Virus record (IMG/VR): IMGVR_UViG_3300035501_001058
Reading direction: 5' to 3' (one strand)
DNA length: 64,000 nucleotides
DNA from: an uncultured virus (IMG/VR IMGVR_UViG_3300035501_001058)
Taxonomy: Duplodnaviria > Heunggongvirae > Uroviricota > Caudoviricetes
Shown piece after piece: positions 1 through 64,000 of the stretch. Each line of letters starts with the position of its first letter. Position 1 is the first letter of the stretch. Under the pieces are notes generated by a model. That model made no database searches. It had not been told where the DNA came from and saw only the letters and a list, made by a program, of their open reading frames with translations. The translations under genes and the position numbers were made by a program.

Positions 1-1
1 T

Positions 2-97
2 GTTGCATTTAGGGAGGATGCAACAGATATAAATGTCTCCTCAGATAAACCAGTTTTTACTGATGAGGTGATTAATTTTGCGAATAGATTTATTTAA
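2..97 (+). CDS. 3' end of an upstream gene (partial)
   Basis: Open frame from window edge (VAFREDATD...NRFI) to TAA at 95-97, overlapping the next gene start as elsewhere in the window. Confidence 0.6.
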   Translation, partial: VAFREDATDINVSSDKPVFTDEVINFANRFI

Positions 98-866
98 AGA
101 TAGAGAACTTTTAAAAGAAGAAAATAGATTACTAGCATACACAGAACAAAGAACATTTACTTTAGCTAGTTCCAAAGAAGAATTAGAAAATGTATGTGGT
201 GATGATAGTGCATTTCTTGATGAATTGCTTGTTACAGCAGCATCACCAAGAGTCTACAATTCTATTTTTGGAAATGCATACGATTCTCATTTTATTCTTG
301 AGGCTATGGGATTAGAAAAGAATACCAAAGAGAATATTATAGTTGTAGATTTAAGTAATAGCCTTGATTATGTTTTACATAGATTAACTGGTTGCTCAGT
401 TGAGAGTGTACATAAACTAAATAATTATGAAGCTGTAAGTAGACATATTATGAATTATAATTTTTCTGCTTTAAGTAATGTAAAAATAAAAGATTTGGCG
501 GCGTTAGATTTAAATATAGCTGAATGGATTGCTAGTTTATTAATCAGTGTTTCTAATAATCAGCTAAGTGATACTGAGATTTTGAATATGCTTATAACTA
601 AGTTTTATAGAGCAATAACTATAGAAGCACAAAAGATACGAAATTACATCATGTTCTATCTTAGGAGTACATGTAATGACACTTTTATAATAAAAAGTCG
701 TTCTTTATGTAGTATACTGGCGACTACAGATGCTGAAATAGATGATGTATGTACCTTATTTGAGTCAGGTAGAGATGATGTTGAGTATGATTTGCATATA
801 TTAAAATTTAAAAAGTATGAGTTTTACAGAGGAGGTGCTTACAATGTTCTTAACTGGAAGCATTAA
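78..866 (+). CDS. Hypothetical protein directly upstream of DNA polymerase
   Basis: 262-aa ORF, TTG start after GAGGTG; overlaps polymerase start. Confidence 0.75.
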   Translation: MRIDLFKDRELLKEENRLLAYTEQRTFTLASSKEELENVCGDDSAFLDELLVTAASPRVYNSIFGNAYDSHFILEAMGLEKNTKENIIVVDLSNSLDYVLHRLTGCSVESVHKLNNYEAVSRHIMNYNFSALSNVKIKDLAALDLNIAEWIASLLISVSNNQLSDTEILNMLITKFYRAITIEAQKIRNYIMFYLRSTCNDTFIIKSRSLCSILATTDAEIDDVCTLFESGRDDVEYDLHILKFKKYEFYRGGAYNVLNWKH

Positions 867-3800
867 GTTTGATGATCAGGAATACTTTATTGCATGGAAG
901 GATATTAAATCATCAGAGGTTCTTTGGTGTTTTTCTCCATATCACAAAGATGATAATATTGAAGTACAGATGGGTGGTGCACCTAAAAATCCTATAATTG
1001 TAGATAAATATGTTTTGAAAAATTTCTATAATGAGAACTATGTTATCGAAATAATGAAAAGATTGAAGGTCTCAGGTGAAGTAAGTGTATATGGGCAACC
1101 ACAAATAATCGAAACTTTTATGGATACATTAGCTTTTGCAAGAAATTATAAATTTGCAAAAGATGACGTAAAAAGAGATTTAGTATCACAGATGTGTGGA
1201 ATGACAACGCAGGATTTTATAGGATCTGATAATCATATTTCTATGTCTTTTACTAAAGAAGATTTATTTTTCACAAGGCTGGATATTGAATATTCTGGTG
1301 TTTCTATACATATGGAAAAGGCTCCATTTTCTTTAAAGGAAAAAGTATTTACATTAGTTGATGCTGATAGGTTATACAAGAAACGTATTCTTACTAAAAC
1401 TATTAAGGATATTGACTATGCAGCGTTATGTGACAGCTTAGATATGACTTGGTATAGAGATGGTGATGTTCTGAAAAAAGATTATTGGAGTATTAAGTCT
1501 GTATTTGAGTTTGAGACTAAAATAATGACACCTATGCTAAAAAAGATTAAGGAATGCTATGATGAAGGCAAAAAGTTTTATGTCTCAGTCGATACGGAAA
1601 CAACAGGCTTGAACGTATATAACTTAGATAAAAATAATCCTGATAAAGATCATGTAGTAGCTATACCGATTACATGGACACCGGATGCAGGTTTCGTAAT
1701 ATTTACCGATATGGAGCATTTTGCTAATGTAGATAATGACTATTGCGTAAGAAGATTAGCAGAAATTTTCGAGAATTTCAAAGGTGAACGTACAATAGAG
1801 TGTTGGGAACCTTGCTCAGAAGATACAATAAAGTTACAAGAAATGAACGTATTTGATGATAAATCAGTATCAAACGTTATAAATGATAGTGATTTAAGTA
1901 AGTGCAAGAAGACTGCAATAACAATCAATAGAAATACAATAAATTTAATTGGGCATAATGTAATGTTCGATAAAAAGGCTTTTATAGACTCTAATTGCTA
2001 TTTTTATTTTGATGATGATACTATGCAAATGTCATTTAATCTAGCAAGTAAATTAGTTAAAGGTTCTAATAAATTGAAGACTTTGACACGTAAGTTATTT
2101 GGACATGAGACTCCGGAGTTAACTGATATTTTAGGAAAAGGTAACGAGGATAAGTATAGATTTTTAGCAAATGAGGAAGTTGCTAGAATTTATGGTTGTG
2201 CCGATGCTGATTATACATTACAGGTATTTTATTATCTTAGAACGTTAACTACTGATTCTATGTATGAAAAATATAAAGCATTAGATGTTCCAATGTTAAA
2301 TATATTACCTAGAAGTGAATACTACGGATTACAGATGCAGGAAGAAAAGGCACTGATGTTAGGTGATGCAGTATTTCATGATATAGAGATATTAAAACAG
2401 TTTGCATACAGGTATGTAGGTATTTTTGTAAATTATTACAGGCAGAGGGAGAAAATAGAAGCAAGAAAAGCTGCAGGTTTGTTTGATTCTGATGAAGCAT
2501 ATCAAGATGCAGTAAATAATATAAAAATTTCTGATTCTGCTATTTATGAATTTGAGTTCAAACCCAATGAGCTAAGAACAGTATTGTTTGAGATATTAAA
2601 ATATCCAATTAAAGCTTGGACAGAAGGGAAAAAGGCTTTACCTAAGCTAGATAAATATGCTATGAAAAAACTGGTTCAGGATAAAAGACCTGAAGGTTCC
2701 ACAGATTTCAACAAGCTGGAACATAATATTTATAGCTATGGACACAGTCAAGAAGAATATGATGAACTTATGGCTAAAGGAACAGAGAAGGCTAAAAAGA
2801 AAGCCGAATCCTTAATACTGATAGATGCTGATGAGTTTAATAAATGCAAATATCCTTTAGCTCTTGTATTACAGAAATATGCAGAATTAAATAAGGAATA
2901 TACAGCATACTTCAAACCAATGAAAGAAACTAATCTTGAGGGTAAGATATTTAAGTCATATTCGTTAGCTAGAATTGAAACAAGAAGAATTCAAAATGCT
3001 GCTCAAACAATGAAAGGTAATTTGAAAGACTTAGTTAAAGCATACAATGAAGATTATTACTTGCTAGACTTCGATATGTCCCAGGTAGAATATCGTATAA
3101 TGCTTAGTTTAGCAGGATACATGGCCATGGTTGATAAGATGAAAGACCCTGAAAAGGATTATCATACTGAAACAGCCAGCTTAGTTAATGGAATACCTGC
3201 TCACAAGGTAGATAAGAAAACTAGAAAAAGTGCTAAGAGTGTAAGTTTTGGCGTGCCTTATGGATTAGGTGAACGTTCATTGTGTGAGAAAATCTTTGGT
3301 GATCCAACAGAAGAACATTTATTTGCCACAAGATTACTTTTGGCTAAATGGGAAAAAGCCAACAAGCCTATAATGGAATTTCTTAACAGTGAAAGAGATA
3401 ATGCTTTGATAGCTAGAGCAATGTCTGATGATCTTCGAGATTTTATGGATGCTTGGGAAAAGAATGAAGATGGTTCATACAAATTAGACCCTTTAGGCAA
3501 GAAAATTCCTAAACCTACTGGTTTTGTTTATGATAAATATGGATTTTATCGTACTTTCGATGTATCAAATATTGATCAAAGTGAATCAGCAAAACGTAGA
3601 CGAGCTACAGGACATTACACATCAGATGAAGCTAAGATACGAAGACCAGCTGGTAATTTCCCTATTCAGTGTTTTGCAGCAGAAATGTTTAGGATAATAC
3701 TTATTAGATTCTATAATAGATGTGAAGAAGAGGGAATTAATGATAAATTAATCTGGCATATGCTAATTCATGATGAACTGTTGTGCAGTGTTCATAAGAG

Positions 3801-5034
3801 TATACATCCATTTTTTATTTACAAATTGGTAAAAGAGAGTTGCATGATTACTATGAAAGGACATACTAATTATTTTGTTGGAATAAATATTGGTAATACT
3901 TGGGGTGAGGTTAAAGATGATGCAAGAGAAGCTCCAGTTTATTTTGTAGATAGAATTGTAAAAAGATGGGATTCTGGCGAGTTTGGTAATGGACCTTTCT
4001 GGTTTGATAATCCATGGGATGATCTTATAAAAGATGAAAGAGCTAAATATGTCGATGAGCGTATCTGGGAAGTTATTCATGAAGTTCAGAAGGACATAGA
4101 TAATGCGCCAATTAATATACCTTATATTATGGAACATTTTGATAACTATACTGTACGAGCATACGTGAAAGATGGATATTCACTTAATAATAAAGTTGTT
4201 GGTGATTACTCAGGTGATGAAAAAGCTGATAGAGAGTGGGCAAGCAGATTTGAGACATGGGCTTTAGGCAGATTTCCTATTGGAAAGCCTATAATCAATT
4301 ACGATGGCAAATTAGTTGTATTAAGAAACGGAAATTATGAGGAAGGAAACGTAAGTGATCCATTAGATTTAGATACTTCATTATTCTTTGAAGATGATGA
4401 TGAAGATATCGAAGCTAATAGTTATTGGAGTTTTGATACAACCGAGTGTAATAATGCATTTGATGCAGAGATTAGTGATGATTCATCAGATGATGATGTA
4501 TTTATGTATGCATTAGATGATGAAAAACAAGGTGCTCATAATATTGCTGAGATGTTACAAGTAACACGTAAGTATAATAATTTAAGCGTAATGCTTGAGC
4601 AAGTTGTTATAACAACAAGTAAAAATCGTCAAGAAGAGATAAAACGTTATTTACAGCCTTATGTCACTTCCAGTGGTAAAAGTATAGTATTTATCTTTCG
4701 AGGTGGCGGTGCAGAAAGATGGCTTAAAGTAAATGATCAAGTAAACTGGGATAAGCTTGATGAATTCATCAAGGAAATTGATAAAATTGAGTCATTAGCA
4801 AAATCTAATAAGTCTTATAAGCCAGAATTATTTACTTTACTGAATAACAATCTTGTAATTACACTCTCAAATAAATATAAATTTGTTAACTGTGAGAATT
4901 GGTTGATGAATTTTGAAAGTCATAATGGGTATGGAGTGATACTTAAAACTCCGTTAGGCGATATACGTAAATTGCCAATAAAGATTATGCTTGATTTTAA
5001 GAAGCTGGATAATTATCTACGAAAGGAGCTTTAA
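844..5034 (+). CDS. polA: Large family-A DNA polymerase with 3'-5' exonuclease and long N/C extensions
   Basis: ExoI VDTETTGL, ExoII GHNVMFD, ExoIII YGCADAD; pol motif A DMSQVEYR, B RKSAKSVSFGVPYG, NFPIQ, C IHDEL. Start moved to ATG 844 after GGAGGTG. Confidence 0.92.
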   Translation: MFLTGSIKFDDQEYFIAWKDIKSSEVLWCFSPYHKDDNIEVQMGGAPKNPIIVDKYVLKNFYNENYVIEIMKRLKVSGEVSVYGQPQIIETFMDTLAFARNYKFAKDDVKRDLVSQMCGMTTQDFIGSDNHISMSFTKEDLFFTRLDIEYSGVSIHMEKAPFSLKEKVFTLVDADRLYKKRILTKTIKDIDYAALCDSLDMTWYRDGDVLKKDYWSIKSVFEFETKIMTPMLKKIKECYDEGKKFYVSVDTETTGLNVYNLDKNNPDKDHVVAIPITWTPDAGFVIFTDMEHFANVDNDYCVRRLAEIFENFKGERTIECWEPCSEDTIKLQEMNVFDDKSVSNVINDSDLSKCKKTAITINRNTINLIGHNVMFDKKAFIDSNCYFYFDDDTMQMSFNLASKLVKGSNKLKTLTRKLFGHETPELTDILGKGNEDKYRFLANEEVARIYGCADADYTLQVFYYLRTLTTDSMYEKYKALDVPMLNILPRSEYYGLQMQEEKALMLGDAVFHDIEILKQFAYRYVGIFVNYYRQREKIEARKAAGLFDSDEAYQDAVNNIKISDSAIYEFEFKPNELRTVLFEILKYPIKAWTEGKKALPKLDKYAMKKLVQDKRPEGSTDFNKLEHNIYSYGHSQEEYDELMAKGTEKAKKKAESLILIDADEFNKCKYPLALVLQKYAELNKEYTAYFKPMKETNLEGKIFKSYSLARIETRRIQNAAQTMKGNLKDLVKAYNEDYYLLDFDMSQVEYRIMLSLAGYMAMVDKMKDPEKDYHTETASLVNGIPAHKVDKKTRKSAKSVSFGVPYGLGERSLCEKIFGDPTEEHLFATRLLLAKWEKANKPIMEFLNSERDNALIARAMSDDLRDFMDAWEKNEDGSYKLDPLGKKIPKPTGFVYDKYGFYRTFDVSNIDQSESAKRRRATGHYTSDEAKIRRPAGNFPIQCFAAEMFRIILIRFYNRCEEEGINDKLIWHMLIHDELLCSVHKSIHPFFIYKLVKESCMITMKGHTNYFVGINIGNTWGEVKDDAREAPVYFVDRIVKRWDSGEFGNGPFWFDNPWDDLIKDERAKYVDERIWEVIHEVQKDIDNAPINIPYIMEHFDNYTVRAYVKDGYSLNNKVVGDYSGDEKADREWASRFETWALGRFPIGKPIINYDGKLVVLRNGNYEEGNVSDPLDLDTSLFFEDDDEDIEANSYWSFDTTECNNAFDAEISDDSSDDDVFMYALDDEKQGAHNIAEMLQVTRKYNNLSVMLEQVVITTSKNRQEEIKRYLQPYVTSSGKSIVFIFRGGGAERWLKVNDQVNWDKLDEFIKEIDKIESLAKSNKSYKPELFTLLNNNLVITLSNKYKFVNCENWLMNFESHNGYGVILKTPLGDIRKLPIKIMLDFKKLDNYLRKEL

Positions 5035-5721: not shown

Positions 5722-6963
5722 ATGAAATTTAATGAAATGAAAGCTAAATATGATGAGTTCAATGCCTTCTCGGATTTCTGTACAGTAGAGCATGCCAAGC
5801 AAATAGATTTAATTCCAGTTGCTTGGCATGATGTTTTTCCTAATAAATGTTCATGCGGTAGTGAAATGATAATAAATTTAGCACGTACTAAATTTACATG
5901 TTGTAATCCTAGATGCAGAATAAAGCAAGGATTTGCATTAAGTGAGTTGTTTAGCAGATTTAATATAAAGGGTATTGCAGATGCAACATGCTCTGATGTT
6001 TATGAGATGCTACAAAGAAAGAATGAGGAAAGAACATCACAAGGAGAAAAACCTTTATTTCTTTCAGATTCATACGTGGAGATACTTAACGTTGATGAAA
6101 AAGATTATCCTATTAGTTTTCAGCAGAGTGCTAAAGGTATGGAGTTTATCGATGGAATTAATTCTATGAAGAATTGCAGTTTAACTTTTTCAGAAATGGT
6201 TTCGAGATTAGGTTTGCCCGAATTTGATTCTACTGCTAAAAAACTATTTAGTGATATAAATAGCTTTGAGGAACTTATGACTACTATTAAAGCTGAGAAT
6301 GGTATCTATAATTTTTGTAGTAGAAGAGGTGTTTATGCAGTACAAAAAATGTTCTGGTTAAAAGTGTCTTTACAGGATATTGCTGTTGCCTGGTTTATCT
6401 TTGGAGAACAGTCTAGAATGCATGGTTTACAAAATCTTGATATCTGTATCACCGGTAGTGTATTTTATAATGGCTCAAAGTACACTAAAAGCGATTTTAT
6501 TAAAATTTGTAATGCACATGCCTACTCGCATAGCATGAGTGAGATACTAAAAGAGATCTTTAAAGATAATTCTATGATAGAATATGAGGATTTTATAAAG
6601 ATTTGCAAAGAACTAAAATGTGAAATAAACACACAAAAATTTGAAACTATTAATCAAAATGAATTATTTGAATTGATTGATCAGTCCGAGTTGGATTTTG
6701 CTGTTCAGTTATATGAGATTAATATGACTACAGCAAAAAAGAGTGTTCCTTATATTGTAGGGGATACACCATCTAGTAGTTCTAAGTATCTGGAAGGCCT
6801 AAGAAGAGGTGTGGAAATTGACAGTGATGGAAATTCTCACAAAGTGTTAGTGACTTCTAATGAACTAATAAGTGAGATTGATAATAAAGTAAAAATTTGG
6901 GAAGGTGGATTGATTAAACGATGCAAGAATTTGATACAGAGTTCCAAGATGACGATCTTCTAG
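5722..6963 (+). CDS. NAD-dependent DNA ligase C-terminal-like protein (Zn finger, HhH, BRCT-like); no adenylation domain
   Basis: PNKCSCGS...CCNPRC zinc finger, NIKGIADAT HhH-like, ICITGS BRCT-like start; no KxDG motif. Confidence 0.65.
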   Translation: MKFNEMKAKYDEFNAFSDFCTVEHAKQIDLIPVAWHDVFPNKCSCGSEMIINLARTKFTCCNPRCRIKQGFALSELFSRFNIKGIADATCSDVYEMLQRKNEERTSQGEKPLFLSDSYVEILNVDEKDYPISFQQSAKGMEFIDGINSMKNCSLTFSEMVSRLGLPEFDSTAKKLFSDINSFEELMTTIKAENGIYNFCSRRGVYAVQKMFWLKVSLQDIAVAWFIFGEQSRMHGLQNLDICITGSVFYNGSKYTKSDFIKICNAHAYSHSMSEILKEIFKDNSMIEYEDFIKICKELKCEINTQKFETINQNELFELIDQSELDFAVQLYEINMTTAKKSVPYIVGDTPSSSSKYLEGLRRGVEIDSDGNSHKVLVTSNELISEIDNKVKIWEGGLIKRCKNLIQSSKMTIF

Positions 6964-12397: not shown

Positions 12398-12406
12398 GAG
12401 GTAATT

Positions 12407-13048: not shown

Positions 13049-13052
13049 TATA

Positions 13053-53021: not shown

Positions 53022-53618
53022 ATGGAGCAAAAGAGATTAATTGTTACATATGAACGTGTTGATCATTTACTTGCTATAGCAAGTGCTAAATTGTCTGAAC
53101 AGCTTGATATTAATGGAGAGGAATATTTATATGTTGTACCTTTTTCTGATTATATTAAGAGTCAGATACATTTAAATGTTACTAATAGGCTTTACAATAG
53201 AGATAGTAGATTGTACAAAGCTGCTTATGATTATCTAATTGGAGAAAGCACAAATGCTGAAAGTTTAAATCCTATTCTTGAATTTTTTTATTCAGATATG
53301 AAGGATTTTTTATTGCATAATAAGTACAATATTAGGCTAGAATTAGATATTAATGTTGAGGTACCAGATACAAAAAAGGTATCATATAATTATGGAGATA
53401 TTAGAACTGAACTATTATGCACTGCAAATGAAAATTTCAGTGATTTTAATGATGCTAGATTATGGTTAAAGAAACATCATTATGCTGAAAATGTTATGCA
53501 GTACGTAAATAGTAATACAGAGTTATTTAATAAAATTGATTCTTATACAGCTATCGCAATTTTATCTGATAACTTAGGTAAGAAAAATATTAAATGGGAG
53601 GTTCCAAATGAGAATTGA
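53022..53618 (+). CDS. Hypothetical protein
   Basis: 198 aa, AAGGAG RBS. Confidence 0.75.
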   Translation: MEQKRLIVTYERVDHLLAIASAKLSEQLDINGEEYLYVVPFSDYIKSQIHLNVTNRLYNRDSRLYKAAYDYLIGESTNAESLNPILEFFYSDMKDFLLHNKYNIRLELDINVEVPDTKKVSYNYGDIRTELLCTANENFSDFNDARLWLKKHHYAENVMQYVNSNTELFNKIDSYTAIAILSDNLGKKNIKWEVPNEN

Positions 53619-57814: not shown

Positions 57815-60800
57815 TTGGTTAAAAGGTTTATAACAATTGTTGTTGCCGGAACACTTATACTTTCATCAGTTAGTACTCTAGCAGCTTCGGATAAAATACC
57901 AGATGAAGCAAAAAATACTGTTAACTATGTTAATAATCAATATAACAATATAGATTATAAATACGAAGTTACAGATGAAAGTAAGATAGATGGTATTCCT
58001 TCAGCAAATAATAAAACATTAGTAAAAAATGATACTGGTAGTAAAAATCTAGAAGATTTGGATACAGTTAAGTCTTGGTTAATTAGTAATGATATAATTT
58101 CAAGACCATACAAATTAAAAGATGGCTCTGTCACAATAAATGAATATGAAGATACTGATTATTGTCCACAAACATTACTATGGACTATGTTATACAAAGC
58201 TAAAAATGGTGTTATAGAAAGTAGACCTTTAGCTAATAAAACTAAACGTACCGGAGAATACACCATAGATAACAGTACAACAGAAGTCACAACGGAAGCA
58301 ACAACAGAAGTTACGATAGAGGCAACAACTGAAAGTACTACTGAAGGTGCTACTGAATCAGCAATACAAAATACTACTGAAAGTAAATCAGAAACAATCA
58401 GTATCGAACCAGTTGATGCAACTGTAGTACAAAAAAGTAAATCAAAGAAAAAAACAACAGAGGCAACAACAGAAGTAGTTTCATACACTGCTAAAGATTA
58501 TGATGTATTAGTTTCATCTAATGTATATGAATTATACTTGAAAGAGTTAATGGATCAAGGAATGATTGATAAGAGTACATTTAACTCTAAAAATGGTAAA
58601 AAATTCTTATCTGATTACAAAAAACTCAGTAATAAAAAATCTGATGATGCTAATGTTGCATGGGATAATAGACTGAAATATGGGACATTAAAGACAAAAA
58701 ATGTCTTAGGATATAGTACTAGTTATAATACTGATTTTAATGTAACAGAAAAGAAGCCAAACTATTTTGTTAATGAAAAGATGTACACTATTGGTGCTTT
58801 ACAGATAATAGCAAAATATGTACGTAGTACAGAAAAAGATATGTCTAATCTTGAAGCATCTATTGTAACCTATAAGTATGGTATAAATTATAAGTTTACT
58901 GTAGATGATGAAGCTGCACAAAATGATATTGAATTCTTAATAGCTAAAGGTATTTTGGACTTTGAGAATCCAGAAGAGTTTACTAATTTATATGGAGAGT
59001 TCACATACGAAAGTGCATTAAAGATAATTTACAGAGTTGCTAATGAGGATGCTAGACTGAATTTTAGTGAAGTTACTCTTACTGATGGAGAATCATTTTG
59101 GCTTGATCAAGGTTACTATGAAGATAATATGTCGATCGTTGAATCAACAAGCCTTCCTCAGGTAAAAACTATAACAGACGATTACTGGAATAGTCTTCTT
59201 GAAAATGATCCAGATGAAGTAGAAAATAGTGATGATGAAGATTCTACTGAATCAAACATAGGTAATAATTTTATTGATGATATACTTGGTCTAAACTTTA
59301 GTAAAGTATCTGTAATGGCTGCAAGTGAGATGCCTACATTCACTGTGGTAAAGATGTTTGATTTATCTTATGACTATACATACAAAGGAATAAATATTAA
59401 GGAACTTAGTGATTCAAATAGCAAACCTGAGGAGTTTGTCAGTTACGAGGAAAGCTCTTTCAATGGTTTAAGTGCCAATGGTAAAACGACTTTAGCAAAA
59501 GTTACATTTAAAGTTGAAGCTAAAAGCTATGACACTGCTGTATTATATGTAGATAATAATATTGCAATAGATGGTTATTTGACATCATCTGATATGTTGG
59601 CGTATACAACAATTAACGAAAATGGTGAAGAAATAACATTAGTACCTGCCACAACTTTACAAAATAGTTTGTCCAATATTTCTATTATTGAAGATAAAGT
59701 TTTGATGAATAATGTAACAGGTGCACAGGCTATTATCTTACCAGAGCAAGGATACGCATTAGTTGGAAACAGAGTTGTGGTGTCAGATACATTAATGATG
59801 ACTGATACATCAGATGAAGTATACTATAACTTAGACGTAATTTGTACTCTGCTTGGAAATACATACTTAAGTAAGCTAACAAATAAACAGTTATATGTTT
59901 GCTCAAGTATTAATAATGAAGTAACAGCAACTATAAAGAGTTCATCAGGAAGCACTCTAGGGAAAGCTTATGTAGTTGATTTTCTTACATCTACAAGTAA
60001 AAAGAAGACTACAACAAAGAAATGTTTTAATGTAGATAATGTTAATTATGGTGTTAATGTTTTGACTAGAAAGTTTAATATTACAGTTAACGGTAATAGT
60101 GAAGATGTTTATTTTATTGTCAATTGGGATTACTGCGTTCCAGACGAAACGGCATTGAGGGATATGATTGATAATAATGTTTTTGGAACATCAACATTAA
60201 CACTAAATGATGTAAATGAGGCAATTTATACTAAGCCATCTGATAAAAGTCTTGCTCTTTGGTGGGATACAAATTTAAGTATTTCTAACTCTTTAGCAAA
60301 TTTCATGTATGGGACAACCAATGTTGAATACGTAAAATCAGGATATCTGACACCGTCTTTAACAATCCTTAGAGATAGTACTGTTCCAGATTCAGCTATC
60401 AATTCTATTTTTACAGCAAATGGCTTTAAACTTGATGATACTGGCTTAAAATACAGTGGTTCTACAACTAATTGGTGGGAAACTTTTTATGGTGCGTCTT
60501 TAATAGAAGATAGCTTTGTAAAAGCTTTAGCATTGAGTAATAGAACTTGTAATGTTTATAATAGTACAGAGCTTAATGATGGATTTGCATACGGAAACTC
60601 ATATTATGTTACAAAAGCTGGTGTAATTTATGAAGATTTTGATAGTGCTAAATCTATTTCTTATGATGTAGCAAAGAAGCAGATTTTGATAAGTTCTAGG
60701 AAAACCGGAGAAGAAGTTGAATCTGTAGCAGATAATACAGTTTTTAGTTATGGTGGAAGTGAATGGATTTATGTCGGAGCTAAAACTATGACTAATAGTA

Positions 60801-62290
60801 AAGGTGAATCTGTTTTGTGTTATAAGATACAACCTAATTTTGTTATAAGTAAATACAATAATGTTACTATCACTAAAACAAAATATGGTGTATTACCTAG
60901 GTTTACAGCTATAACATCAAAGCAATCTGATACAGCTATATATAATGATAATGTTAATGAACTAAGCGCGTTATACAGTACATACTTTCCTACAGTTTCA
61001 CCTATAGTGAAATATAAGGATTCATCTGAAATGTATGGTGTTTCATCTTTTCGTATAAAGAATTTTTATAAGAGTTTATACGATAAAGGAAGTTATTATG
61101 TTAACGGAACAAATATCTCTACTGACGGAAAGACAAAAGTTTCTTTAACTTCTGGTAAAAGTTATAAGACGTACTCAAGTAATAATATACAGGCTATTCC
61201 GTACTTCTATGTACCAGCTTCTAATTTTTATTTCACAAAGGTTAATGATCAATTAATGATGCAGGAAGGTTCCGCAGTAATAGCTTTAACTATGAATAAT
61301 GTGTTCACATCAGGTATCTCTAAGAATGTAATAGACAATATACTTTTTAAAGAGACTAAAACAATAGCAGTTAATTCAATGTTAAATGGACAACAGTTAT
61401 TGATAGATGATGTACTTTATACAAAAACCACAGACAATTCAGGTAACGCTATTTTTATCTCTGAACCAATTACTGATACAAAATTTGCAAATGCATTAAA
61501 AAATGCGGAACAAGATGATGAATTAGGAATTATTAAATCGCACCTATTTGCAGCACAACAAATAACTTGCGAAGGAGTTTCTTACTATCTAAGTTCCTTT
61601 GTAATAGGTGGTACGGTGGGAGATATCTCTAACGCTGAAGATGGTGGCCAAACACTTTATAAGCATGGAGGAAATAAATATATCTATGTGGATAGTACAA
61701 ATCAAACAGTAGATGCTAGTAGCAGTACTGCAAAATCTGTATGTATTGCAATAACATTAGCAGATGGTTTATATGCTAGACCTACTAATGAAAAACAGAA
61801 TACATACATACTGCTGAAAGCTAGTAATGTTACACCTGATAGTAGCATTGATTATATTCCATTCTTTAATGAGAACCTTACTTTCTCTGAAAATGTGGAT
61901 TCTTATGTGAGTGTTACTAATTCTAAATTTAATGCATCTTCTCTGTTCCTTAATGCAAAAACAGGATATAAGAAGATGATGAAAGAGGCTTTTCAGGGTG
62001 ATGTAATAACTGTTATCTGGATGATTATTTTCTACTTCTGTGTTTACATGACAGTGGTTGTTTGGATAATGTACATTATTCTCGGAAAAGGATACGGTTT
62101 AGCTTTCTTCAGAGCAGCAACTATTCCGTCAGGGAAAAATGGATATCTGAAACACGGTTTCGATTTAATAAAAATTTTTACATTTGGTACTTATAATATT
62201 GATTCAATGCCAACACTAGCGCGAACTATGATAACAAGTTTTATCACTTTTTTCATTTCATACGCTATTGTATTTTGGCAGCCTTTTTAG
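57815..62290 (+). CDS. Very large secreted/membrane-anchored surface protein
   Basis: Signal peptide ending STLA-A; S/T-rich; two C-terminal hydrophobic segments. Confidence 0.85.
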   Translation: MVKRFITIVVAGTLILSSVSTLAASDKIPDEAKNTVNYVNNQYNNIDYKYEVTDESKIDGIPSANNKTLVKNDTGSKNLEDLDTVKSWLISNDIISRPYKLKDGSVTINEYEDTDYCPQTLLWTMLYKAKNGVIESRPLANKTKRTGEYTIDNSTTEVTTEATTEVTIEATTESTTEGATESAIQNTTESKSETISIEPVDATVVQKSKSKKKTTEATTEVVSYTAKDYDVLVSSNVYELYLKELMDQGMIDKSTFNSKNGKKFLSDYKKLSNKKSDDANVAWDNRLKYGTLKTKNVLGYSTSYNTDFNVTEKKPNYFVNEKMYTIGALQIIAKYVRSTEKDMSNLEASIVTYKYGINYKFTVDDEAAQNDIEFLIAKGILDFENPEEFTNLYGEFTYESALKIIYRVANEDARLNFSEVTLTDGESFWLDQGYYEDNMSIVESTSLPQVKTITDDYWNSLLENDPDEVENSDDEDSTESNIGNNFIDDILGLNFSKVSVMAASEMPTFTVVKMFDLSYDYTYKGINIKELSDSNSKPEEFVSYEESSFNGLSANGKTTLAKVTFKVEAKSYDTAVLYVDNNIAIDGYLTSSDMLAYTTINENGEEITLVPATTLQNSLSNISIIEDKVLMNNVTGAQAIILPEQGYALVGNRVVVSDTLMMTDTSDEVYYNLDVICTLLGNTYLSKLTNKQLYVCSSINNEVTATIKSSSGSTLGKAYVVDFLTSTSKKKTTTKKCFNVDNVNYGVNVLTRKFNITVNGNSEDVYFIVNWDYCVPDETALRDMIDNNVFGTSTLTLNDVNEAIYTKPSDKSLALWWDTNLSISNSLANFMYGTTNVEYVKSGYLTPSLTILRDSTVPDSAINSIFTANGFKLDDTGLKYSGSTTNWWETFYGASLIEDSFVKALALSNRTCNVYNSTELNDGFAYGNSYYVTKAGVIYEDFDSAKSISYDVAKKQILISSRKTGEEVESVADNTVFSYGGSEWIYVGAKTMTNSKGESVLCYKIQPNFVISKYNNVTITKTKYGVLPRFTAITSKQSDTAIYNDNVNELSALYSTYFPTVSPIVKYKDSSEMYGVSSFRIKNFYKSLYDKGSYYVNGTNISTDGKTKVSLTSGKSYKTYSSNNIQAIPYFYVPASNFYFTKVNDQLMMQEGSAVIALTMNNVFTSGISKNVIDNILFKETKTIAVNSMLNGQQLLIDDVLYTKTTDNSGNAIFISEPITDTKFANALKNAEQDDELGIIKSHLFAAQQITCEGVSYYLSSFVIGGTVGDISNAEDGGQTLYKHGGNKYIYVDSTNQTVDASSSTAKSVCIAITLADGLYARPTNEKQNTYILLKASNVTPDSSIDYIPFFNENLTFSENVDSYVSVTNSKFNASSLFLNAKTGYKKMMKEAFQGDVITVIWMIIFYFCVYMTVVVWIMYIILGKGYGLAFFRAATIPSGKNGYLKHGFDLIKIFTFGTYNIDSMPTLARTMITSFITFFISYAIVFWQPF
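58275..58480 (+). repeat. Coding low-complexity TTE repeats
   Basis: STTEVTTEATTEVTIEATTESTTEGATE ... TTEATTEV; imperfect 12-bp units. Confidence 0.8.
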
Positions 62291-62305
62291 AAAGGAGGAT
62301 TTTAT

Positions 62306-63430
62306 ATGCAACATGTTTTTGCAGTTACATCTACTGAATTAACTGATTTGTTTTACACGGAAGCTTTTAGCGGCTCCTGGGCAATTTTTTCGAAGTTTAA
62401 TTGGTTAGGTGCTTTAATGCAGTTTATAATTTCTGCATTTTGTTTAATTGGAATTTTTCTTACAATGTATCAATTACTTGTAACTATGCTATACTTAAGT
62501 TCGAGAACATTATTTGATAGAATACATGAATTAAAGCAGGCAGGTAAGGGAGGCAAAGCTTTAGGTTTACCTAATTTATTTAAGGATAGCATAGCAACAG
62601 CTAATAATGGTACAGGATTGGATGCAATATTATCCTTTCTGTTATCATTACTTCCTGACGTTAAAGCATACTCAGATTATAATGAGGGACAGCGTTCATA
62701 CAATTTGCAGGACGATGATACTATTACAACTTACATTTTAAAGAAAGCATTACCTACTATTATGATAGTATTTTTCTTTGCAATGGGATTTAATGGTACA
62801 TTGTTCAGGGCATATGGTATGGTAGTAGATGCTATGGCTACAGCTGCAGAAGAGGTCGTTTCAACAGATTTAACTGCTACTGTTAGCAAATGGATGAATT
62901 CCGGAAAAGCATACAATTTTGCTTACAGTGCTGATGGCACTAATTATGGTGAGTTAAGGCAGAATATTGCTTCTTCAATGTATAATAAAACATTAGCCAA
63001 GACCGATGATTTATCAACTAATGCAAAATTATACATTGGACAGCAGATAGAATCGTGGATTAATAACAATACAGATATTTCTGAAGGAAGCAATAAAGTT
63101 GGCTCTGCTGAAGTGCCTGGTTTTGCTGGTACTGATGCAGATTGTGCTAATTTGCAAGTTTCTGTTGTTATTAATGGTACACAAAAAATTAATAACACAG
63201 AGAATTCTCAGGAGTTAACTGGTCAAGGTATAGCAATGTCAAACTTTGGTATTACTGGTGATAATGCTAATGATTATTATATGCATGTTTTTATTACAAA
63301 GAAGTCTAGTGCGAATGAGACAAACTACTTTAGTGTTGACGAAGACGATGCTACAAACGCTACTAGTAGTGGTGGTAGCTCAAGTAATAACTCTAATAAG
63401 CCAGCATCACAAATAGAAGTAGATGAGTAA
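62306..63430 (+). CDS. Membrane protein with extracellular C-terminal domain
   Basis: Hydrophobic segments in N-half; polar C-half; AAGGAGG RBS. Confidence 0.8.
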   Translation: MQHVFAVTSTELTDLFYTEAFSGSWAIFSKFNWLGALMQFIISAFCLIGIFLTMYQLLVTMLYLSSRTLFDRIHELKQAGKGGKALGLPNLFKDSIATANNGTGLDAILSFLLSLLPDVKAYSDYNEGQRSYNLQDDDTITTYILKKALPTIMIVFFFAMGFNGTLFRAYGMVVDAMATAAEEVVSTDLTATVSKWMNSGKAYNFAYSADGTNYGELRQNIASSMYNKTLAKTDDLSTNAKLYIGQQIESWINNNTDISEGSNKVGSAEVPGFAGTDADCANLQVSVVINGTQKINNTENSQELTGQGIAMSNFGITGDNANDYYMHVFITKKSSANETNYFSVDEDDATNATSSGGSSSNNSNKPASQIEVDE

Positions 63431-63437
63431 TAAACAG

Positions 63438-63472
63438 GAGTACATAGTATAAAAGCTGTGTGCTCTTTTTTT
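63438..63472 (+). terminator. Intrinsic terminator with TATAAAAG loop
   Basis: GAGTACATAG/CTGTGTGCTC stem (2 G-U) then T7. Confidence 0.85.
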
Positions 63473-63503
63473 GTATAGTTCTGCGAATGGAGGTGTAAAA
63501 CAG

Positions 63504-64000
63504 GTGCAGACTAGAAAAATAGTTCTTACTGTCATTTTAATAGTTTGTATGATAATGTCAGATGTAACGCCAAACGTAGTATTAGCTGATGGAAGTTCTA
63601 ATACAGTGGAAACAGATACAGAGATTGCACAATACAAACTTGCTATAACGACAAGAATTTCTGAATTAGAAAGTGGCTTAAATAATGATTTACACAATCA
63701 AGTTGGTTTATTAATGAATTCAAGATATTTAGCTGAATACATGATGTATTATTTACATATATATCGAAATAAAGATGAATTGGGGTTTTCCTCTGCGGAA
63801 ATTTTATATTATGCAAAAAGGTTAAATCAATACATGGGTATTTTTAATGATTCATTTGGTGGTGATAATACTGAATTTGAGTGCTTAAACCTTGATTGTT
63901 TTGATAGTGATGATAATGTTAAATCTTCAAAGATAAAGGATAAATGTGTAAGTAATCTACAAAGTAAGTTACTAAATTATTATCAAAAAATCTTAAGTGA
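63504..64000 (+). CDS. Secreted protein, partial (runs off window end)
   Basis: GGAGGTG then GTG 63504; MQTRKIVLTVILIVCMIMS... signal-like; frame open to 64000. Confidence 0.75.
   Translation, partial: MQTRKIVLTVILIVCMIMSDVTPNVVLADGSSNTVETDTEIAQYKLAITTRISELESGLNNDLHNQVGLLMNSRYLAEYMMYYLHIYRNKDELGFSSAEILYYAKRLNQYMGIFNDSFGGDNTEFECLNLDCFDSDDNVKSSKIKDKCVSNLQSKLLNYYQKILS

What the first reader, a model, noticed from the sequence alone, without database searches (positions are those of the whole stretch)
1..64000. Backbone of a giant extrachromosomal element with its own replication, transcription and secretion machinery
Seen: all credible genes are co-oriented over 64 kb, about half are unassignable, and host housekeeping genes are absent. 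Seen: very divergent homologs of PolA (x2), DnaX, primase, UvrD, RecJ, SbcCD, LigA C-half and RpoA-NTD, plus FtsK/T7-like and PilB-like modules and large surface proteins. No virion genes were recognised. Inference: a megaplasmid or phage-plasmid-like replicon that replicates and possibly transcribes semi-autonomously and may transfer by a non-canonical machine.
Basis: partly seen in the sequence, partly recalled or inferred. Interest (0 to 1): 0.85.

Follow-up and report, generated by a model that had tools for sequence, protein, structure and literature searches.

The report
Giant integrative element with own polymerases
This stretch is the core of a roughly 150-180 kb mobile element of gut Lachnospiraceae that carries its own DNA-replication and RNA-polymerase genes, sits integrated in the chromosome in its relatives, and shares its gene backbone with the enigmatic conjugative plasmid pXO16 of Bacillus thuringiensis.

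Summary
All 52 credible ORFs are on one strand. The window has no tRNA, rRNA or ribosomal genes, and 33 of 52 proteins have no family. The listed PolA (x2), DnaX, primase, UvrD, RecJ, SbcCD, LigA C-half, RpoA-NTD, FtsK-like and PilB-like genes are there.

This is a giant mobile element with its own replisome. Relatives also carry a fused RpoB-RpoC just upstream of the window block. However, the two relatives with a visible end are integrated in Lachnospiraceae chromosomes. One is 180,360 bp long, lies between 24-bp direct repeats at the 3' end of tRNA-Met, and has a tyrosine integrase. The other abuts a large serine recombinase. The host genomes keep their own PolA, RpoB and DnaX.

No terminase, portal or capsid family was found in 171 ORFs scanned with PHROGs. 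The closest named relative is pXO16, a 350-kb conjugative plasmid with all genes co-oriented. Nine window families plus a VirB4-like ATPase have homologs there, and 9 of these 10 lie in the same order.

Best reading: a pXO16-like giant conjugative element, here in an integrative form and carrying its own multisubunit RNA polymerase. A capsid-less or cryptic giant prophage is not excluded.

The parts
78..866 (+). Conserved protein of unknown function (262 aa), the first gene of the window block.
   Evidence: Collinear homologs in c1, c2, c3 and c4. No family found.
817..5034 (+). Giant family-A DNA polymerase (1405 aa) with a 3'-5' exonuclease region. Probably the element's replicative polymerase.
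   Evidence: Pfam DNA_pol_A 2.4e-31 and PHROG 17 3.8e-39. 299 relatives, best 66% identity. pXO16 homolog at 2.5e-46.
5722..6963 (+). Protein resembling the C-terminal half of NAD-dependent ligase LigA. The adenylation half is a separate gene upstream of the window block in relatives.
   Evidence: NCBIfam TIGR00575 positions 391-622, E 7.6e-5. pXO16 homolog at 1.6e-11. LigA adenylation-domain gene at c1 200391-201629.
6921..10046 (+). 1041-aa acidic protein with invariant CxxC...CxxC. Function unknown.
   Evidence: Alignment A4. No family found.
10049..10942 (+). Possible clamp-loader delta (HolA)-like protein. The assignment is weak.
   Evidence: NCBIfam TIGR01128, E 2e-4, below cut-off.
11753..15844 (+). 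Envelope cluster: a 6-TM protein (11753-12397), 3-TM and 4-TM small proteins (13449-14182), a 296-aa unknown protein, and an M23 peptidase lipoprotein (15074-15844).
   Evidence: TM scan. Pfam Peptidase_M23 9.2e-28.
15909..17132 (+). 407-aa conserved protein that folds confidently but matches no solved structure.
   Evidence: 91 homologs. pLDDT 95.3, pTM 0.93. No PDB match. BFVD hits: an unnamed viral protein at 2.3e-6 and a Bacillus phage SP-15 protein at 4.6e-3.
19936..20598 (+). DnaQ/RNase T-type 3'-5' exonuclease.
   Evidence: Pfam RNase_T 3.7e-7 and PHROG 192 2.5e-19.
22756..23094 (+). Small, highly conserved protein (112 aa) that follows the longest intergenic gap.
   Evidence: 71% identity to c1. 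RNA-library contigs identical to the window at 22481-22811. No WXG100 support.
23225..25777 (+). 850-aa conserved protein of unknown function, upstream of the FtsK-like ATPase.
   Evidence: Homologs in all 4 relatives. No PDB or atlas match.
25782..27905 (+). FtsK/SpoIIIE-type ATPase (707 aa, no TM segment). Its ATPase domain resembles EssC/EccC.
   Evidence: Pfam FtsK_SpoIIIE 1e-18, PHROG 1358 1.7e-36, NCBIfam EssC 2.9e-22 (far below cut-off). TM scan.
27984..29759 (+). Second, exonuclease-less family-A polymerase-like protein (591 aa).
   Evidence: Pfam DNA_pol_A 7e-5, below cut-off. Motif A/B/C-like invariant columns. PDB Pol I at 0.078.
29999..31988 (+). DUF285/BspA-like repeat protein, followed by a DUF2958 + DUF5688 protein.
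   Evidence: Pfam 3.7e-30, 1.7e-42 and 6.9e-8.
32043..32777 (+). NERD nuclease-related protein.
   Evidence: Pfam NERD 1.1e-7. 72% identity to c1.
33569..34336 (+). Toprim (DnaG-type) primase catalytic domain. The CHC2 zinc-ribbon protein is a separate gene elsewhere in relatives.
   Evidence: Pfam Toprim_2 6e-11 and PHROG primases. c1 93453-94187 Zn_ribbon_DnaG. pXO16 homolog at 1.9e-11.
36009..38244 (+). SbcC-like (weak) and SbcD-like nuclease pair.
   Evidence: AAA_23 5.6e-4 and Metallophos 8.1e-7. pXO16 homolog of the first at 6e-9.
41911..45862 (+). UvrD-family helicase (809 aa) and RecJ-like DHH exonuclease (513 aa).
   Evidence: Pfam UvrD 8.9e-37 and DHH 1.4e-10; PHROG 1967 4.9e-70 and PHROG 2484 6e-43. 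pXO16 homologs at 5.9e-32 and 7.5e-21.
46864..48486 (+). PilB/GspE/ComGA-type secretion ATPase (540 aa).
   Evidence: Pfam T2SSE 4e-24 and NCBIfam GspE 7.1e-25, both below equivalog cut-offs.
51977..53020 (+). 5'-3' exonuclease / flap endonuclease.
   Evidence: Pfam 5_3_exonuc_N 6.7e-17. pXO16 homolog at 3.1e-10.
53608..54207 (+). RNA polymerase alpha subunit, N-terminal (assembly) domain only (199 aa).
   Evidence: NCBIfam rpoA 9.2e-10. All 10 PDB profile hits are RNAP alpha, best 1.6e-9.
56138..57340 (+). DnaX (gamma/tau)-like clamp-loader ATPase.
   Evidence: NCBIfam TIGR02397 2.2e-39, below the 250-bit cut-off. Host DnaX lies on other contigs in 4 of 4 relatives. pXO16 homolog at 7.2e-33.
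57815..63998 (+). Start of the presumed mating-pore/surface module. It holds a 1491-aa protein with a signal peptide and C-terminal TM segments, a 374-aa 3-TM protein, and the N-terminus of a ~1600-aa polytopic protein that is cut by the window end.
   Evidence: TM scan. The full-length homolog is 1634 aa in c1. In relatives these are followed by a VirB4-like ATPase and a 3D-domain hydrolase.
15845..15883 (+). Terminator-like hairpin plus T-run. It is one of three similar copies; the others are at 27919-27957 and 63433-63471. Each follows a stop codon.
   Evidence: Repeat family D1. Positions checked against ORF ends.

Best explanation
The window is the central half of the ~120-130 kb conserved, collinear backbone of a giant (about 150-180 kb) mobile element of Lachnospiraceae. 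The element is a distant relative of the conjugative plasmid pXO16.

Shown:
- The backbone is a conserved gene order, found in four other genomes.
- The element copies of PolA, DnaX and RpoB are extra to the host's own copies.
- One relative is inserted site-specifically at tRNA-Met and carries an integrase.
- The backbone order is shared with pXO16.

Inferred life cycle:
1. The element rests integrated in the chromosome and is excised by its recombinase.
2. It replicates on its own replisome. This comprises a PolA-type polymerase with proofreading, a DnaB-like helicase, a split primase, a DnaX/delta-like clamp loader, FEN, a split LigA, and RecJ/SbcCD/UvrD. A TubZ-type partition protein keeps the free form.
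3. It transcribes itself with its own bacterial-type RNA polymerase: the alpha NTD encoded in the window, plus the beta-beta' fusion and sigma-like factors found in relatives.
4. It moves to new cells through a non-canonical, pXO16-like type IV secretion apparatus. The candidate parts are a VirB4-like ATPase, polytopic giant membrane proteins, cell-wall hydrolases, FtsK-like and PilB-like ATPases, and sortase-anchored adhesins.
For: Synteny with relatives:
- 51 of 52 window ORFs are collinear on G001:C37, 43 of 52 on G002:C1, 43 of 52 on the isolate's G003:C12, and 25 of 52 on G004:C397, where the contig ends.
- The core extends over c1 ~70-203 kb and c2 ~155-273 kb.

Integration:
- c1 1-66 kb holds host genes (PrfA, L31, Rho, Tig, MreB, butyrate pathway), followed by a tyrosine integrase at 65881-67143.
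- A 24-bp direct repeat lies at c1 65793 and at 246153. The second copy is the 3' end of tRNA-Met. This makes the element 180,360 bp.
- c2 holds host genes up to ~143 kb, then a large serine recombinase at 143090-144769.

Extra copies: canonical PolA (E~1e-165) and DnaX (E~1e-138) lie on other contigs in 4 of 4 genomes, and canonical RpoB (E~1e-130) in 3 of 4.

RNA polymerase:
- Beta-beta' fusion of 2877 aa with Rpb2_6 1.5e-54 and Rpb1 domains.
- NADFDGD is present in c1 and c2 (the motif itself is recalled).
- The alpha NTD lies in the window.
- Sigma70_r4 and alpha-CTD-like proteins occur in c1.

Link to pXO16:
- 9 of 52 window-family HMMs, plus the VirB4-like profile (3.4e-32), hit pXO16.
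- 9 of these 10 markers are in the same order. Only 77 of 200,000 random permutations reach that.
- pXO16 also has one-sided GC skew around the whole circle, and 252 versus 20 ORFs of at least 150 aa on the two strands.
- Reviews describe pXO16 as having all CDS in a common orientation, few homologues, and proven ssDNA conjugation distantly related to T4SS (PMC6199540 section 30 passages; PMC9673590 section 16).

VirB4-like ATPase (656 aa, about 8 kb downstream of the window's end in relatives):
- Pfam on 33 members: 14 hit DUF87 and 3 hit TraG P-loop.
- NCBIfam on 33 members: 9 hit TraC, 6 VirB4_plasma, 2 VirB4_CagE and 2 CD1110 VirB4-like.
- The best PDB hit is a VirB4-like protein (0.077).

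Envelope and adhesion parts: polytopic 1634-aa, 3-TM and N-terminal-TM proteins and a 3D-domain hydrolase lie around the VirB4-like gene. Sortases and SpaA/TQ adhesins are present.

No virion hallmark was found in 52 + 119 ORFs with PHROGs. IMG/VR gave nothing.
Against: - No relaxase, no canonical coupling protein (the FtsK-like ATPase has no TM segment) and no oriT were found.
- All VirB4 evidence is below curated cut-offs. hhalign against 5 canonical VirB4 ORFs gave only 34% probability (E 4.3e-4).
- Only 9 of 52 window families are detectable in pXO16, and all 9 are replication or repair genes. pXO16 has no RpoB-like gene.
- Several features are typical of large phages: a complete replisome, an own RNA polymerase, thymidylate synthase, dNMP kinase and TubZ/PhuZ.
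- The one folded unknown protein matches only viral predicted structures.
- Only one junction per relative was seen for c2. The window's own flanks are unknown.
- Not every ORF was scanned. Six c1 ORFs that span the 20-kb fetch boundaries were never scanned, and three of them lie in the element. The c2 core was judged only through its homology to c1.
- Transfer and excision have not been observed.
Confidence: 0.6

Rival explanations
1. It is a giant temperate phage (prophage). Its capsid, portal, terminase and tail genes are too divergent for current HMM libraries. The replisome and RNA polymerase serve lytic growth, as in jumbo phages.
For: - It is integrated at a tRNA gene with an integrase.
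- It has an own multisubunit RNA polymerase, PolA, DnaB-like helicase, primase, ligase, thymidylate synthase, dNMP kinase and TubZ/PhuZ-like protein, many of them with PHROG hits.
- An M23 peptidase and a marginal holin-like protein are present.
- The folded 407-aa unknown protein matches only viral predicted proteins: an unnamed BFVD entry at 2.3e-6 and Bacillus phage SP-15 at 4.6e-3.
- A phage-like nature has also been suspected for pXO16 (PMC6199540 passage).
- 33 of 52 window proteins are unassigned and could hide structural genes.
Against: - No terminase, portal, major capsid, tail tube or tail sheath family was found in 171 ORFs with PHROGs, nor in the Pfam scans.
- IMG/VR holds no relative.
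- Sortases, SpaA adhesins and a VirB4-like ATPase point to cell-to-cell transfer.
- The related pXO16 transfers by conjugation, and plaques have never been obtained from it.
- The confidently folded unknown protein matches no solved capsid structure.
Confidence: 0.2
2. The window's copy is a free megaplasmid. It would be a circular pXO16-like replicon that never integrates, with the integrated relatives as a side branch.
For: - pXO16 (349 kb) and the 215.9-kb B. amyloliquefaciens plasmid, which share PolA and the VirB4-like ATPase, are circular plasmids.
- TubZ partition genes occur in relatives.
- The PolA family is common in metagenome assemblies (299 clusters). It was found in only 1 of 401 sampled genomes of G001's family, namely G001 itself. 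This is what one would expect if most copies are not binned with chromosomes.
Against: - Both relatives whose contigs reach an element end are joined to host chromosome beside a recombinase.
- No Rep_3, ParA or ParB family appeared in the c1 element.
- The closest relative (65% PolA identity, 51 of 52 genes collinear) is the integrated one.
Confidence: 0.15
3. It is an ordinary chromosomal region whose genes are the host's own, merely divergent, housekeeping genes.
For: Co-orientation and GC skew of similar sign also occur in the chromosomal flanks of relatives: 46 of 54 and 38 of 41 ORFs.
Against: - The host's canonical PolA, RpoB and DnaX lie elsewhere in the related genomes.
- The element copies score far below the equivalog cut-offs.
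- The block was found in 1 of 401 genomes of the family sampled.
- The block is bounded by att repeats.
Confidence: 0.02

Closest known systems
pXO16, the 350-kb conjugative plasmid of Bacillus thuringiensis sv. israelensis (records NZ_CP045024.1, NC_018516.1)
   Same: - Giant size, with nearly all genes on one strand and one-signed GC skew throughout.
- Few database homologues (PMC9673590 section 16).
- Homologous PolA, LigA-C-like, Toprim primase, SbcC-like, w34, UvrD, RecJ, FEN, DnaX and VirB4-like genes. Nine of the 10 are in the same order.
- The same local layout: DnaX-like ATPase, then giant proteins, then the VirB4-like ATPase.
- No relaxase identified in either element.
   Different: - pXO16 is a free circular plasmid of Bacilli and is twice as large.
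- It has no RpoB-like or RpoA-like gene.
- Only 9 of 52 window families are detectable in it, at about 20-28% identity.
- No hit in pXO16 was seen for the window's FtsK-like and PilB-like ATPases at E 1e-3.
- Relatives of the window element are integrated by tyrosine or serine recombinases.
Unnamed 215.9-kb circular plasmids of Bacillus amyloliquefaciens/velezensis (NZ_CP071971.1, NZ_CP076292.1)
   Same: - PolA homolog (E 6e-29, covering 60% of the query).
- VirB4-like homolog (E 1.8e-53).
- Annotated DnaB-like helicase, CHC2 primase and sigma factor in a co-oriented array.
   Different: - They are free circular plasmids with an annotated ParB.
- They were not examined for RNA polymerase or for overall synteny.
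Integrative and conjugative elements of Bacillota (ICEBs1, Tn916, pCW3-type Tcp systems; names and properties recalled)
   Same: - Site-specific recombinase at one end, and tRNA-targeted insertion with direct repeats.
- VirB4-clade ATPase, FtsK-type ATPase, cell-wall hydrolases and surface adhesins.
   Different: - This element is five to ten times larger.
- It carries a complete replisome and a multisubunit RNA polymerase.
- No relaxase or TM-anchored coupling protein was recognised.
Jumbo phages with their own multisubunit RNA polymerase (phiKZ, AR9/PBS2; recalled) and the SPbeta prophage
   Same: - Own RNA polymerase, PolA-type or other replisome genes, nucleotide-metabolism genes and tubulin-like TubZ/PhuZ.
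- SPbeta-like use of a large serine recombinase in one relative.
   Different: - No virion genes were recognised.
- The RNA polymerase here is a full-length bacterial-type beta-beta' fusion plus an alpha NTD. As recalled, the jumbo phages have split, alpha-less subunits.
- Sortase/adhesin and VirB4-like genes are present.
Hodor megaplasmids (PMC12934698) and Inocles (PMC12340149)
   Same: - They are giant, long-overlooked elements of human-associated Bacillota.
- Hodors also carry sortases and a surface module and were first taken for huge phages (section 5).
- Inocles have ~32% GC (passage).
   Different: - Hodors have Rep_3, ParA/ParB/ParM, VirB4, VirD4 and a MOBH relaxase, 45-47% GC, and are ~357-kb circles. 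None of Rep_3, ParA or ParB was found in the c1 element.
- Inocles are circular with two replichores and an ORF-orientation switch, and live in oral streptococci.
- Neither text contains 'RNA polymerase' (0 occurrences).
- No sequences of either were compared here.

Membership tests
Integrative and conjugative element (ICE) | Site-specific recombinase at an element end | tested here: met
   In relatives only. Tyrosine integrase at c1 65881-67143 (Pfam 2.5e-20). Large serine recombinase at c2 143090-144769 (Resolvase 3.2e-32 plus Recombinase plus Zn ribbon). The window itself holds no recombinase.
Integrative and conjugative element (ICE) | Insertion bounded by att direct repeats in a host chromosome | tested here: met
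   G001:C37 has a 24-bp exact repeat at 65793 and at 246153. The second copy is the 3' end of tRNA-Met. Host genes lie on both sides. This cannot be seen for the window's own copy.
Integrative and conjugative element (ICE) | VirB4-family ATPase | tested here: inconclusive
   Tested on the 656-aa family just downstream of the window in relatives. 14 of 33 members hit DUF87, 3 of 33 TraG P-loop, 9 of 33 TraC, 6 of 33 VirB4_plasma and 2 of 33 VirB4_CagE. The best PDB hit is VirB4-like at 0.077. hhalign against canonical VirB4 gives 34% probability. All hits are below curated cut-offs, and a fold could not be made.
Integrative and conjugative element (ICE) | Relaxase and coupling protein | tested here: inconclusive
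   No relaxase family appeared in the Pfam scans of the 52 window ORFs or of 150 c1 ORFs. An FtsK-type ATPase is present but has no TM segment. An HD-domain protein lies in the c1 arm. pXO16 conjugates although no relaxase has been identified in it.
Integrative and conjugative element (ICE) | Observed excision and transfer | not testable with these tools
   This needs PCR or reads across attP/attB, and mating assays.
pXO16-like giant conjugative elements | Giant size with (nearly) all CDS on one strand and one-signed GC skew | tested here: met
   Window: 52 of 52 ORFs, with skew + in 32 of 32 bins. c1 element: 169 of 172 ORFs. pXO16: 252 versus 20 ORFs, with skew + in all 18 bins.
pXO16-like giant conjugative elements | Homologous backbone genes in conserved order | tested here: met
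   9 of 52 window HMMs plus the VirB4-like profile hit pXO16. 9 of the 10 are collinear, and 77 of 200,000 permutations reach this.
pXO16-like giant conjugative elements | Free circular plasmid | tested here: not met
   Relatives c1 and c2 are joined to host chromosome. No terminal overlap was found on c1 or c2. The window's own topology is unknown.
pXO16-like giant conjugative elements | tip-locus functions (two ATPases, one cell-wall hydrolase) and aggregation-linked ssDNA transfer | not testable with these tools
The VirB4-like homolog and the hydrolases are present.
Tailed phage (Caudoviricetes) / prophage | Large terminase, portal and HK97-fold major capsid protein | tested here: inconclusive
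   No such PHROG or Pfam family was found in the 52 window ORFs, 119 further c1 element ORFs or 92 c2 flank ORFs. Only one unknown protein was folded, and it has no capsid-like match. 33 of 52 window proteins remain unassigned.
Bacterial multisubunit RNA polymerase | Alpha N-terminal assembly domain | tested here: met
   Window 53608-54207. All 10 PDB profile hits are RNAP alpha, best 1.6e-9. NCBIfam rpoA gives 9.2e-10, below cut-off.
Bacterial multisubunit RNA polymerase | Beta and beta' subunits with the catalytic NADFDGD motif | tested here: met
   Seen in relatives, outside the window. The 2877-aa and 2752-aa fusions have Rpb2_6 at 1.5e-54 and Rpb1 domains 2-5, and NADFDGD is present (the motif is recalled). 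The window starts about 3.5 kb downstream of this gene's position in c1.
Hodor megaplasmids | Rep_3 initiator with ParA/ParB/ParM | tested here: not met
   None of these Pfam families appeared among the 52 window ORFs or the 150 c1 ORFs. The defining features are taken from PMC12934698 sections 5 and 7.

The most novel reading that the evidence does not exclude
These elements, together with pXO16 and the Bacillus 216-kb plasmids, form a previously unrecognised lineage of capsid-less, virus-sized replicons. They are as autonomous as jumbo phages, with a complete replisome and, in the Lachnospiraceae branch, a full bacterial-type RNA polymerase (beta-beta' fusion, alpha, sigma). They spread by a non-canonical conjugation machine and can rest integrated in the chromosome. 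The element's own RNA polymerase would let it express itself independently of the host's transcription machinery, for example immediately after entry into a new host.
Probability: 0.3. Interest if true: 0.9.

Novelty: new variant of a known kind. Interest (0 to 1): 0.7.

Why it matters
- pXO16 has been called '350 kb of terra incognita'. It is a proven but mechanistically unexplained conjugative device, and no relatives outside the Bacillus cereus group were named in the two pXO16 reviews read here.
- A shared, collinear backbone in gut Clostridia gives a comparative handle on which pXO16 genes are core. These are the replisome and a VirB4-like module.
- In five literature searches I found no description of an integrative element that carries a whole replisome and a multisubunit bacterial-type RNA polymerase. 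If confirmed, it blurs the line between ICEs, megaplasmids and jumbo phages.
- It raises the question of why a conjugative element needs transcriptional autonomy.
- The family is abundant in gut metagenome assemblies (299 PolA clusters) but nearly absent from reference genomes. It was found in only 1 of 401 genomes sampled from G001's family, G001 itself.
- A cultured isolate carries it, so the questions can be tested at the bench.

Tried and rejected
- No whole genome is held for the window, so size, circularity and rRNA content of its contig could not be inspected.
- A single-protein search of IMG/VR and genome contigs found nothing. Even the PolA alignment found nothing in IMG/VR.
- PDB profile searches gave nothing for the 850-aa (A5), 563-aa (A7), 603-aa (A6, coiled-coil noise only) and 501-aa (A10) unknown proteins.
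- The atlas holds the 850-aa protein, but only as a poor model (pLDDT 0.34) with no usable hit.
- The 407-aa protein folded very well, but Foldseek against the PDB (no E <= 1e-3) and the VIA wide search (best Z 5.6, helices only) found no known fold.
- The idea that 62306-63427 is a beta clamp and 57815-62290 a Pol III alpha was rejected. Both are membrane or secreted proteins.
- The idea that 22756-23094 is a WXG100/T7SS substrate beside the EssC-like ATPase was rejected. There is no Pfam or PDB support and no WXG motif.
- Hodor and Inocle were considered and rejected as identities.
- Only one public run held part of the window, an RNA library with 6% of the words. Eight short contigs identical to the window lie at 22.5-22.8, 26.2-27.7 and 35.4-35.8 kb. 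The parts without cover say nothing, and DNA carry-over cannot be excluded.
- No att-like direct repeat was found for c2. This is expected for a serine recombinase, so its far end is undefined.
- The search of earlier findings returned nothing.

Full report
**1. What is in the window**

ORF listing gives 61 ORFs of at least 100 aa. Fifty-two lie on the + strand and tile the window at 96.6% coding, leaving only seven gaps of 100 nt or more. The nine - strand ORFs all lie inside + strand ORFs. GC is 0.30-0.36, and GC skew is positive (+0.15 to +0.31) in all 32 two-kb bins. There is no tRNA and no Rfam family at gathering score.

- a 1405-aa family-A DNA polymerase with an exonuclease region (817-5034);
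- a second, exonuclease-less PolA-like protein (27984-29759). It is below the Pfam cut-off, but motif A/B/C-like columns are invariant in five homologs;
- a DnaQ-type exonuclease (19936-20598);
- a Toprim primase (33569-34336);
- an SbcC-like/SbcD-like pair (36009-38244);
- UvrD (41911-44340) and RecJ (44321-45862);
- a flap endonuclease (51977-53020);
- DnaX (56138-57340);
- a weak HolA-like protein (10049-10942);
- a weak match to the C-terminal half of LigA (5722-6963);
- an FtsK/EssC-like ATPase (25782-27905);
- a PilB/GspE-like ATPase (46864-48486);
- an M23 lipoprotein inside a cluster of small polytopic proteins (11753-15844).

The RpoA N-terminal domain at 53608-54207 is well supported. 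A four-sequence profile hits only RNA polymerase alpha chains in the PDB (10 of 10, best E 1.6e-9).

Thirty-three of the 52 proteins have no family, which is more than the 'about half' reported.

**2. The block is a conserved backbone, and its genes are extra copies**

The PolA has 299 relatives at E <= 0.001 among the 7,999 candidates scored. The best is 66% identical. All come from metagenome or MAG sources, on contigs of up to 333 kb. IMG/VR holds none.

An alignment-based scan of one genome per species found four loci, all in Lachnospiraceae or Clostridium-labelled records. One of them is a cultured isolate.

I fetched the full contigs and compared them by tblastn:
- 51 of 52 window ORFs are collinear on G001:C37;
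- 43 of 52 on G002:C1, at only 20-56% identity;
- 43 of 52 on the isolate's G003:C12;
- 25 of 52 on G004:C397, which ends inside the block.

Between the two full contigs, the collinear core runs over about 120-130 kb (c1 ~70-203 kb, c2 ~155-273 kb). The window is its central half.

All four genomes carry a canonical PolA (E~1e-165) and a canonical DnaX (E~1e-138) on other contigs. Three of the four carry a canonical RpoB (E~1e-130). The element copies score far lower. These are therefore not the hosts' sole orthologs.

The element is sporadic. With the window PolA as query, only G001 itself matched among 401 sampled genomes of its family.

**3. Relatives are integrated, not free**

On G001:C37, the first 66 kb encode ordinary chromosomal genes: RF1, PrmC, L31, Rho, trigger factor, LuxS, the thiolase-to-Etf butyrate genes, MreB, DHFR and IspF. 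A tyrosine integrase follows at 65881-67143, and then the element.

A 24-bp exact direct repeat lies at 65793, beside the integrase, and again at 246153. The second copy is the 3' terminal 24 nt of a tRNA-Met gene that heads a nine-tRNA host cluster. This is the classic signature of tRNA-targeted site-specific insertion. It sets the element's length at 180,360 bp (33.3% GC, against 35.4% in the flank).

On G002:C1, host genes run up to ~143 kb: LexA, Obg, L27, L21, RNase G, the his operon and RelA-like. A large serine recombinase follows at 143090-144769, and then the element. A tyrosine integrase lies at ~293.8 kb, and the far end is not defined.

The two relatives thus use different recombinases at the same end of a conserved backbone.

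The element's GC follows that of its host: 28-30%, 31% (the window), 33%, 36-38% and 43-45%.

Co-orientation is near total in the element (169 of 172 ORFs in c1). It is already 85-93% in the chromosomal flanks.

The window is internal to the element, and no genome is held for it. The state of this particular copy is unknown.

**4. What the rest of the element carries**

I scanned 150 of the 177 c1 ORFs outside the window block with Pfam. I scanned 119 of the 122 element ORFs outside the block with PHROGs. Six ORFs that span the 20-kb fetch boundaries were never scanned, and three of them lie in the element.

- *Upstream of the window block:* a LigA adenylation-domain protein; a 2877-aa RpoB-RpoC fusion (Rpb2_6 1.5e-54 and Rpb1 domains 2-5, with the catalytic NADFDGD motif in both c1 and c2, motif recalled); an HNH endonuclease; and a 911-aa unknown protein.
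- *Downstream of the window block:* a DnaB-like helicase, an SNF2 helicase, a CHC2 zinc-ribbon protein, a RuvC-like resolvase, an Hsp70-like protein, two Sigma70_r4 proteins (one also with an alpha-CTD-like region), a weak GreA-like hit, sortase, signal peptidase, transglutaminase and a 3D-domain hydrolase.
- *In the variable arms:* TubZ, SpaA/TQ adhesins, thymidylate synthase, dNMP kinase and an HD protein.

No terminase, portal, major capsid, tail tube or tail sheath family appeared in the 52 window ORFs plus 119 further element ORFs scanned with PHROGs. None appeared in the Pfam scans either.

**5. The link to pXO16**

The best plasmid matches of the PolA are 349.6-kb Bacillus thuringiensis plasmids. 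By size and accession (NC_018516, pBTHD789-1) these are pXO16 (PMC6199540: Table 2 passage, Figure 7 legend).

Two reviews describe pXO16:
- It is highly coding, with all CDS in a common orientation and very few database homologues.
- It has been suspected of a phage-like nature, although plaques were never obtained.
- It has been proven to transfer single-stranded DNA by a mechanism distantly related to T4SS.
- No relaxase or oriT has been identified.
(PMC6199540 section 30 passage; PMC9673590 section 16 read in full. The primary papers were not read.)

I fetched the whole record. It has 33.4% GC, positive skew in all 18 bins, and 252 versus 20 ORFs of at least 150 aa on the two strands.

HMMs built from each window protein and its homologs hit pXO16 for 9 of 52 families: PolA 2.5e-46, DnaX 7.2e-33, UvrD 5.9e-32, RecJ 7.5e-21, LigA-C-like 1.6e-11, primase 1.9e-11, FEN 3.1e-10, SbcC-like 6e-9 and the w34 protein 2.8e-7. 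The profile of a 656-aa ATPase that lies just downstream of the window in relatives hits at 3.4e-32.

Nine of these ten markers lie in the same order on both elements. Only 77 of 200,000 random permutations reach that, allowing any circular start and either direction.

The local layout is also the same: DnaX-like ATPase, then giant proteins, then several mid-sized proteins, then the 656/678-aa ATPase.

A 215.9-kb circular B. amyloliquefaciens plasmid shares the PolA (6e-29) and this ATPase (1.8e-53) as well.

pXO16 has no RpoB-like gene, and the RpoA-like HMM found no hit in it. The RNA polymerase therefore appears to be specific to the Lachnospiraceae branch.

**6. Is the ATPase a VirB4?**

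The 656-aa family has 149 relatives. Scans of 33 members gave:
- Pfam: 14 hit DUF87 (best 3.4e-7) and 3 hit TraG P-loop.
- NCBIfam: 9 hit TraC (best 4.2e-9), 6 the Mbov_0397 VirB4 family (best 8.1e-12), 2 VirB4_CagE and 2 the CD1110 VirB4-like family.

The best PDB hit is a VirB4-like protein, at only E 0.077. hhalign against five canonical VirB4-type ORFs from the isolate gives 34% probability (E 4.3e-4) over 157 columns around the Walker A site.

Every hit points to the conjugative VirB4 clade, but none passes a curated cut-off. A structure prediction could not be run. I therefore call it VirB4-like, not proven.

Around it lie a 1634-aa protein with at least six TM segments (its N-terminus is the window's last ORF), a 3-TM protein, a 695-aa N-terminally anchored protein and a membrane-anchored 3D-domain hydrolase. 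Such a set is what one would expect of a Gram-positive mating channel.

**7. Unknown proteins**

The 407-aa protein at 15909-17132 has 91 diverse homologs and folds with pLDDT 95.3 and pTM 0.93. It has no PDB match by Foldseek or by the wide VIA search. Its only matches are an unnamed viral predicted protein (E 2.3e-6, TMq 0.38) and a Bacillus phage SP-15 protein (4.6e-3). This is a small point in favour of a phage connection. It is not a capsid match.

**8. Expression**

One gut metatranscriptome library holds eight short contigs identical to the window. This is a weak hint that the element is present in that sample and possibly transcribed there. DNA carry-over cannot be excluded.

**9. Verdict**

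- Its inference of an autonomous giant mobile element with its own replication and transcription genes, and an unusual transfer machine, is supported and extended.
- Its 'extrachromosomal' label is not supported: the relatives are integrated.
- The best-supported reading (0.6) is a pXO16-like giant conjugative element in an integrative form that has acquired a full bacterial-type RNA polymerase.
- A cryptic giant prophage (0.2) and a free-plasmid state for this copy (0.15) remain open.
- In five full-text searches I found no description of such an RNA-polymerase-bearing integrative element, nor of pXO16 relatives in Clostridia. Subscription papers and supplementary files were not searched.

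Noticed in passing
window 15845-15883, 27919-27957, 63433-63471: There are three copies of a ~39-nt terminator-like hairpin with a shared loop and a T-run. Each follows a stop codon: after the M23 gene, after the FtsK-like gene and after the 3-TM gene. They suggest a few long operons with element-specific terminators.
   Followed up: partly
window 15909-17132: This 407-aa protein gives a very confident model (pLDDT 95.3) but has no solved-structure match. Its N-terminal half is beta-rich and its C-terminal half is a bundle of long helices. Its only structural neighbours are predicted viral proteins, including one from the jumbo Bacillus phage SP-15.
   Followed up: yes
window 5722-6963 and c1 (G001:C37) 200391-201629: The NAD-dependent ligase appears to be split into two genes about 15-20 kb apart, one for the adenylation domain and one for the C-terminal half. 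The primase is split in the same way, into Toprim and CHC2 zinc-ribbon genes.
   Followed up: partly
window, c1, c2, c3 and c4 as wholes: The element's GC content tracks that of its host across relatives (28-30%, 31%, 33%, 36-38%, 43-45%), although the gene order is conserved. This suggests long residence in, or co-divergence with, each host lineage.
   Followed up: partly
G001:C37 65881-67143 versus G002:C1 143090-144769: The same end of the conserved backbone carries a tyrosine integrase in one relative and a large serine recombinase in the other. The integration module has been swapped.
   Followed up: partly
G001:C37 249975-250280: A second, truncated integrase lies at the contig end, beyond the host tRNA cluster. 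Another mobile element probably sits next door.
   Followed up: no
G002:C1 295-310 kb: Beyond the tyrosine integrase lie Schlafen/AlbA_2, GmrSD-N, an M78 peptidase and several DUF4116 proteins. This looks like a defence or accessory island, and it is unclear whether it belongs to the element.
   Followed up: no
G001:C37 189480-189983: An HNH endonuclease gene sits between the 911-aa unknown protein and the RpoB-RpoC fusion. It has no detectable counterpart in c2 by tblastn.
   Followed up: no
window 22412-22755 and 22756-23094: The longest intergenic gap (344 nt) precedes a small, highly conserved 112-aa protein. The RNA-library contigs with the highest depth lie here.
   Followed up: partly
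L045 (NZ_CP071971.1): The 215.9-kb circular B. amyloliquefaciens plasmid is typed 'non-mobilizable'. Yet it carries PolA, a VirB4-like ATPase, a DnaB-like helicase, a CHC2 primase, ParB and a sigma factor in one orientation. It looks like another unrecognised member of this supergroup.
   Followed up: partly
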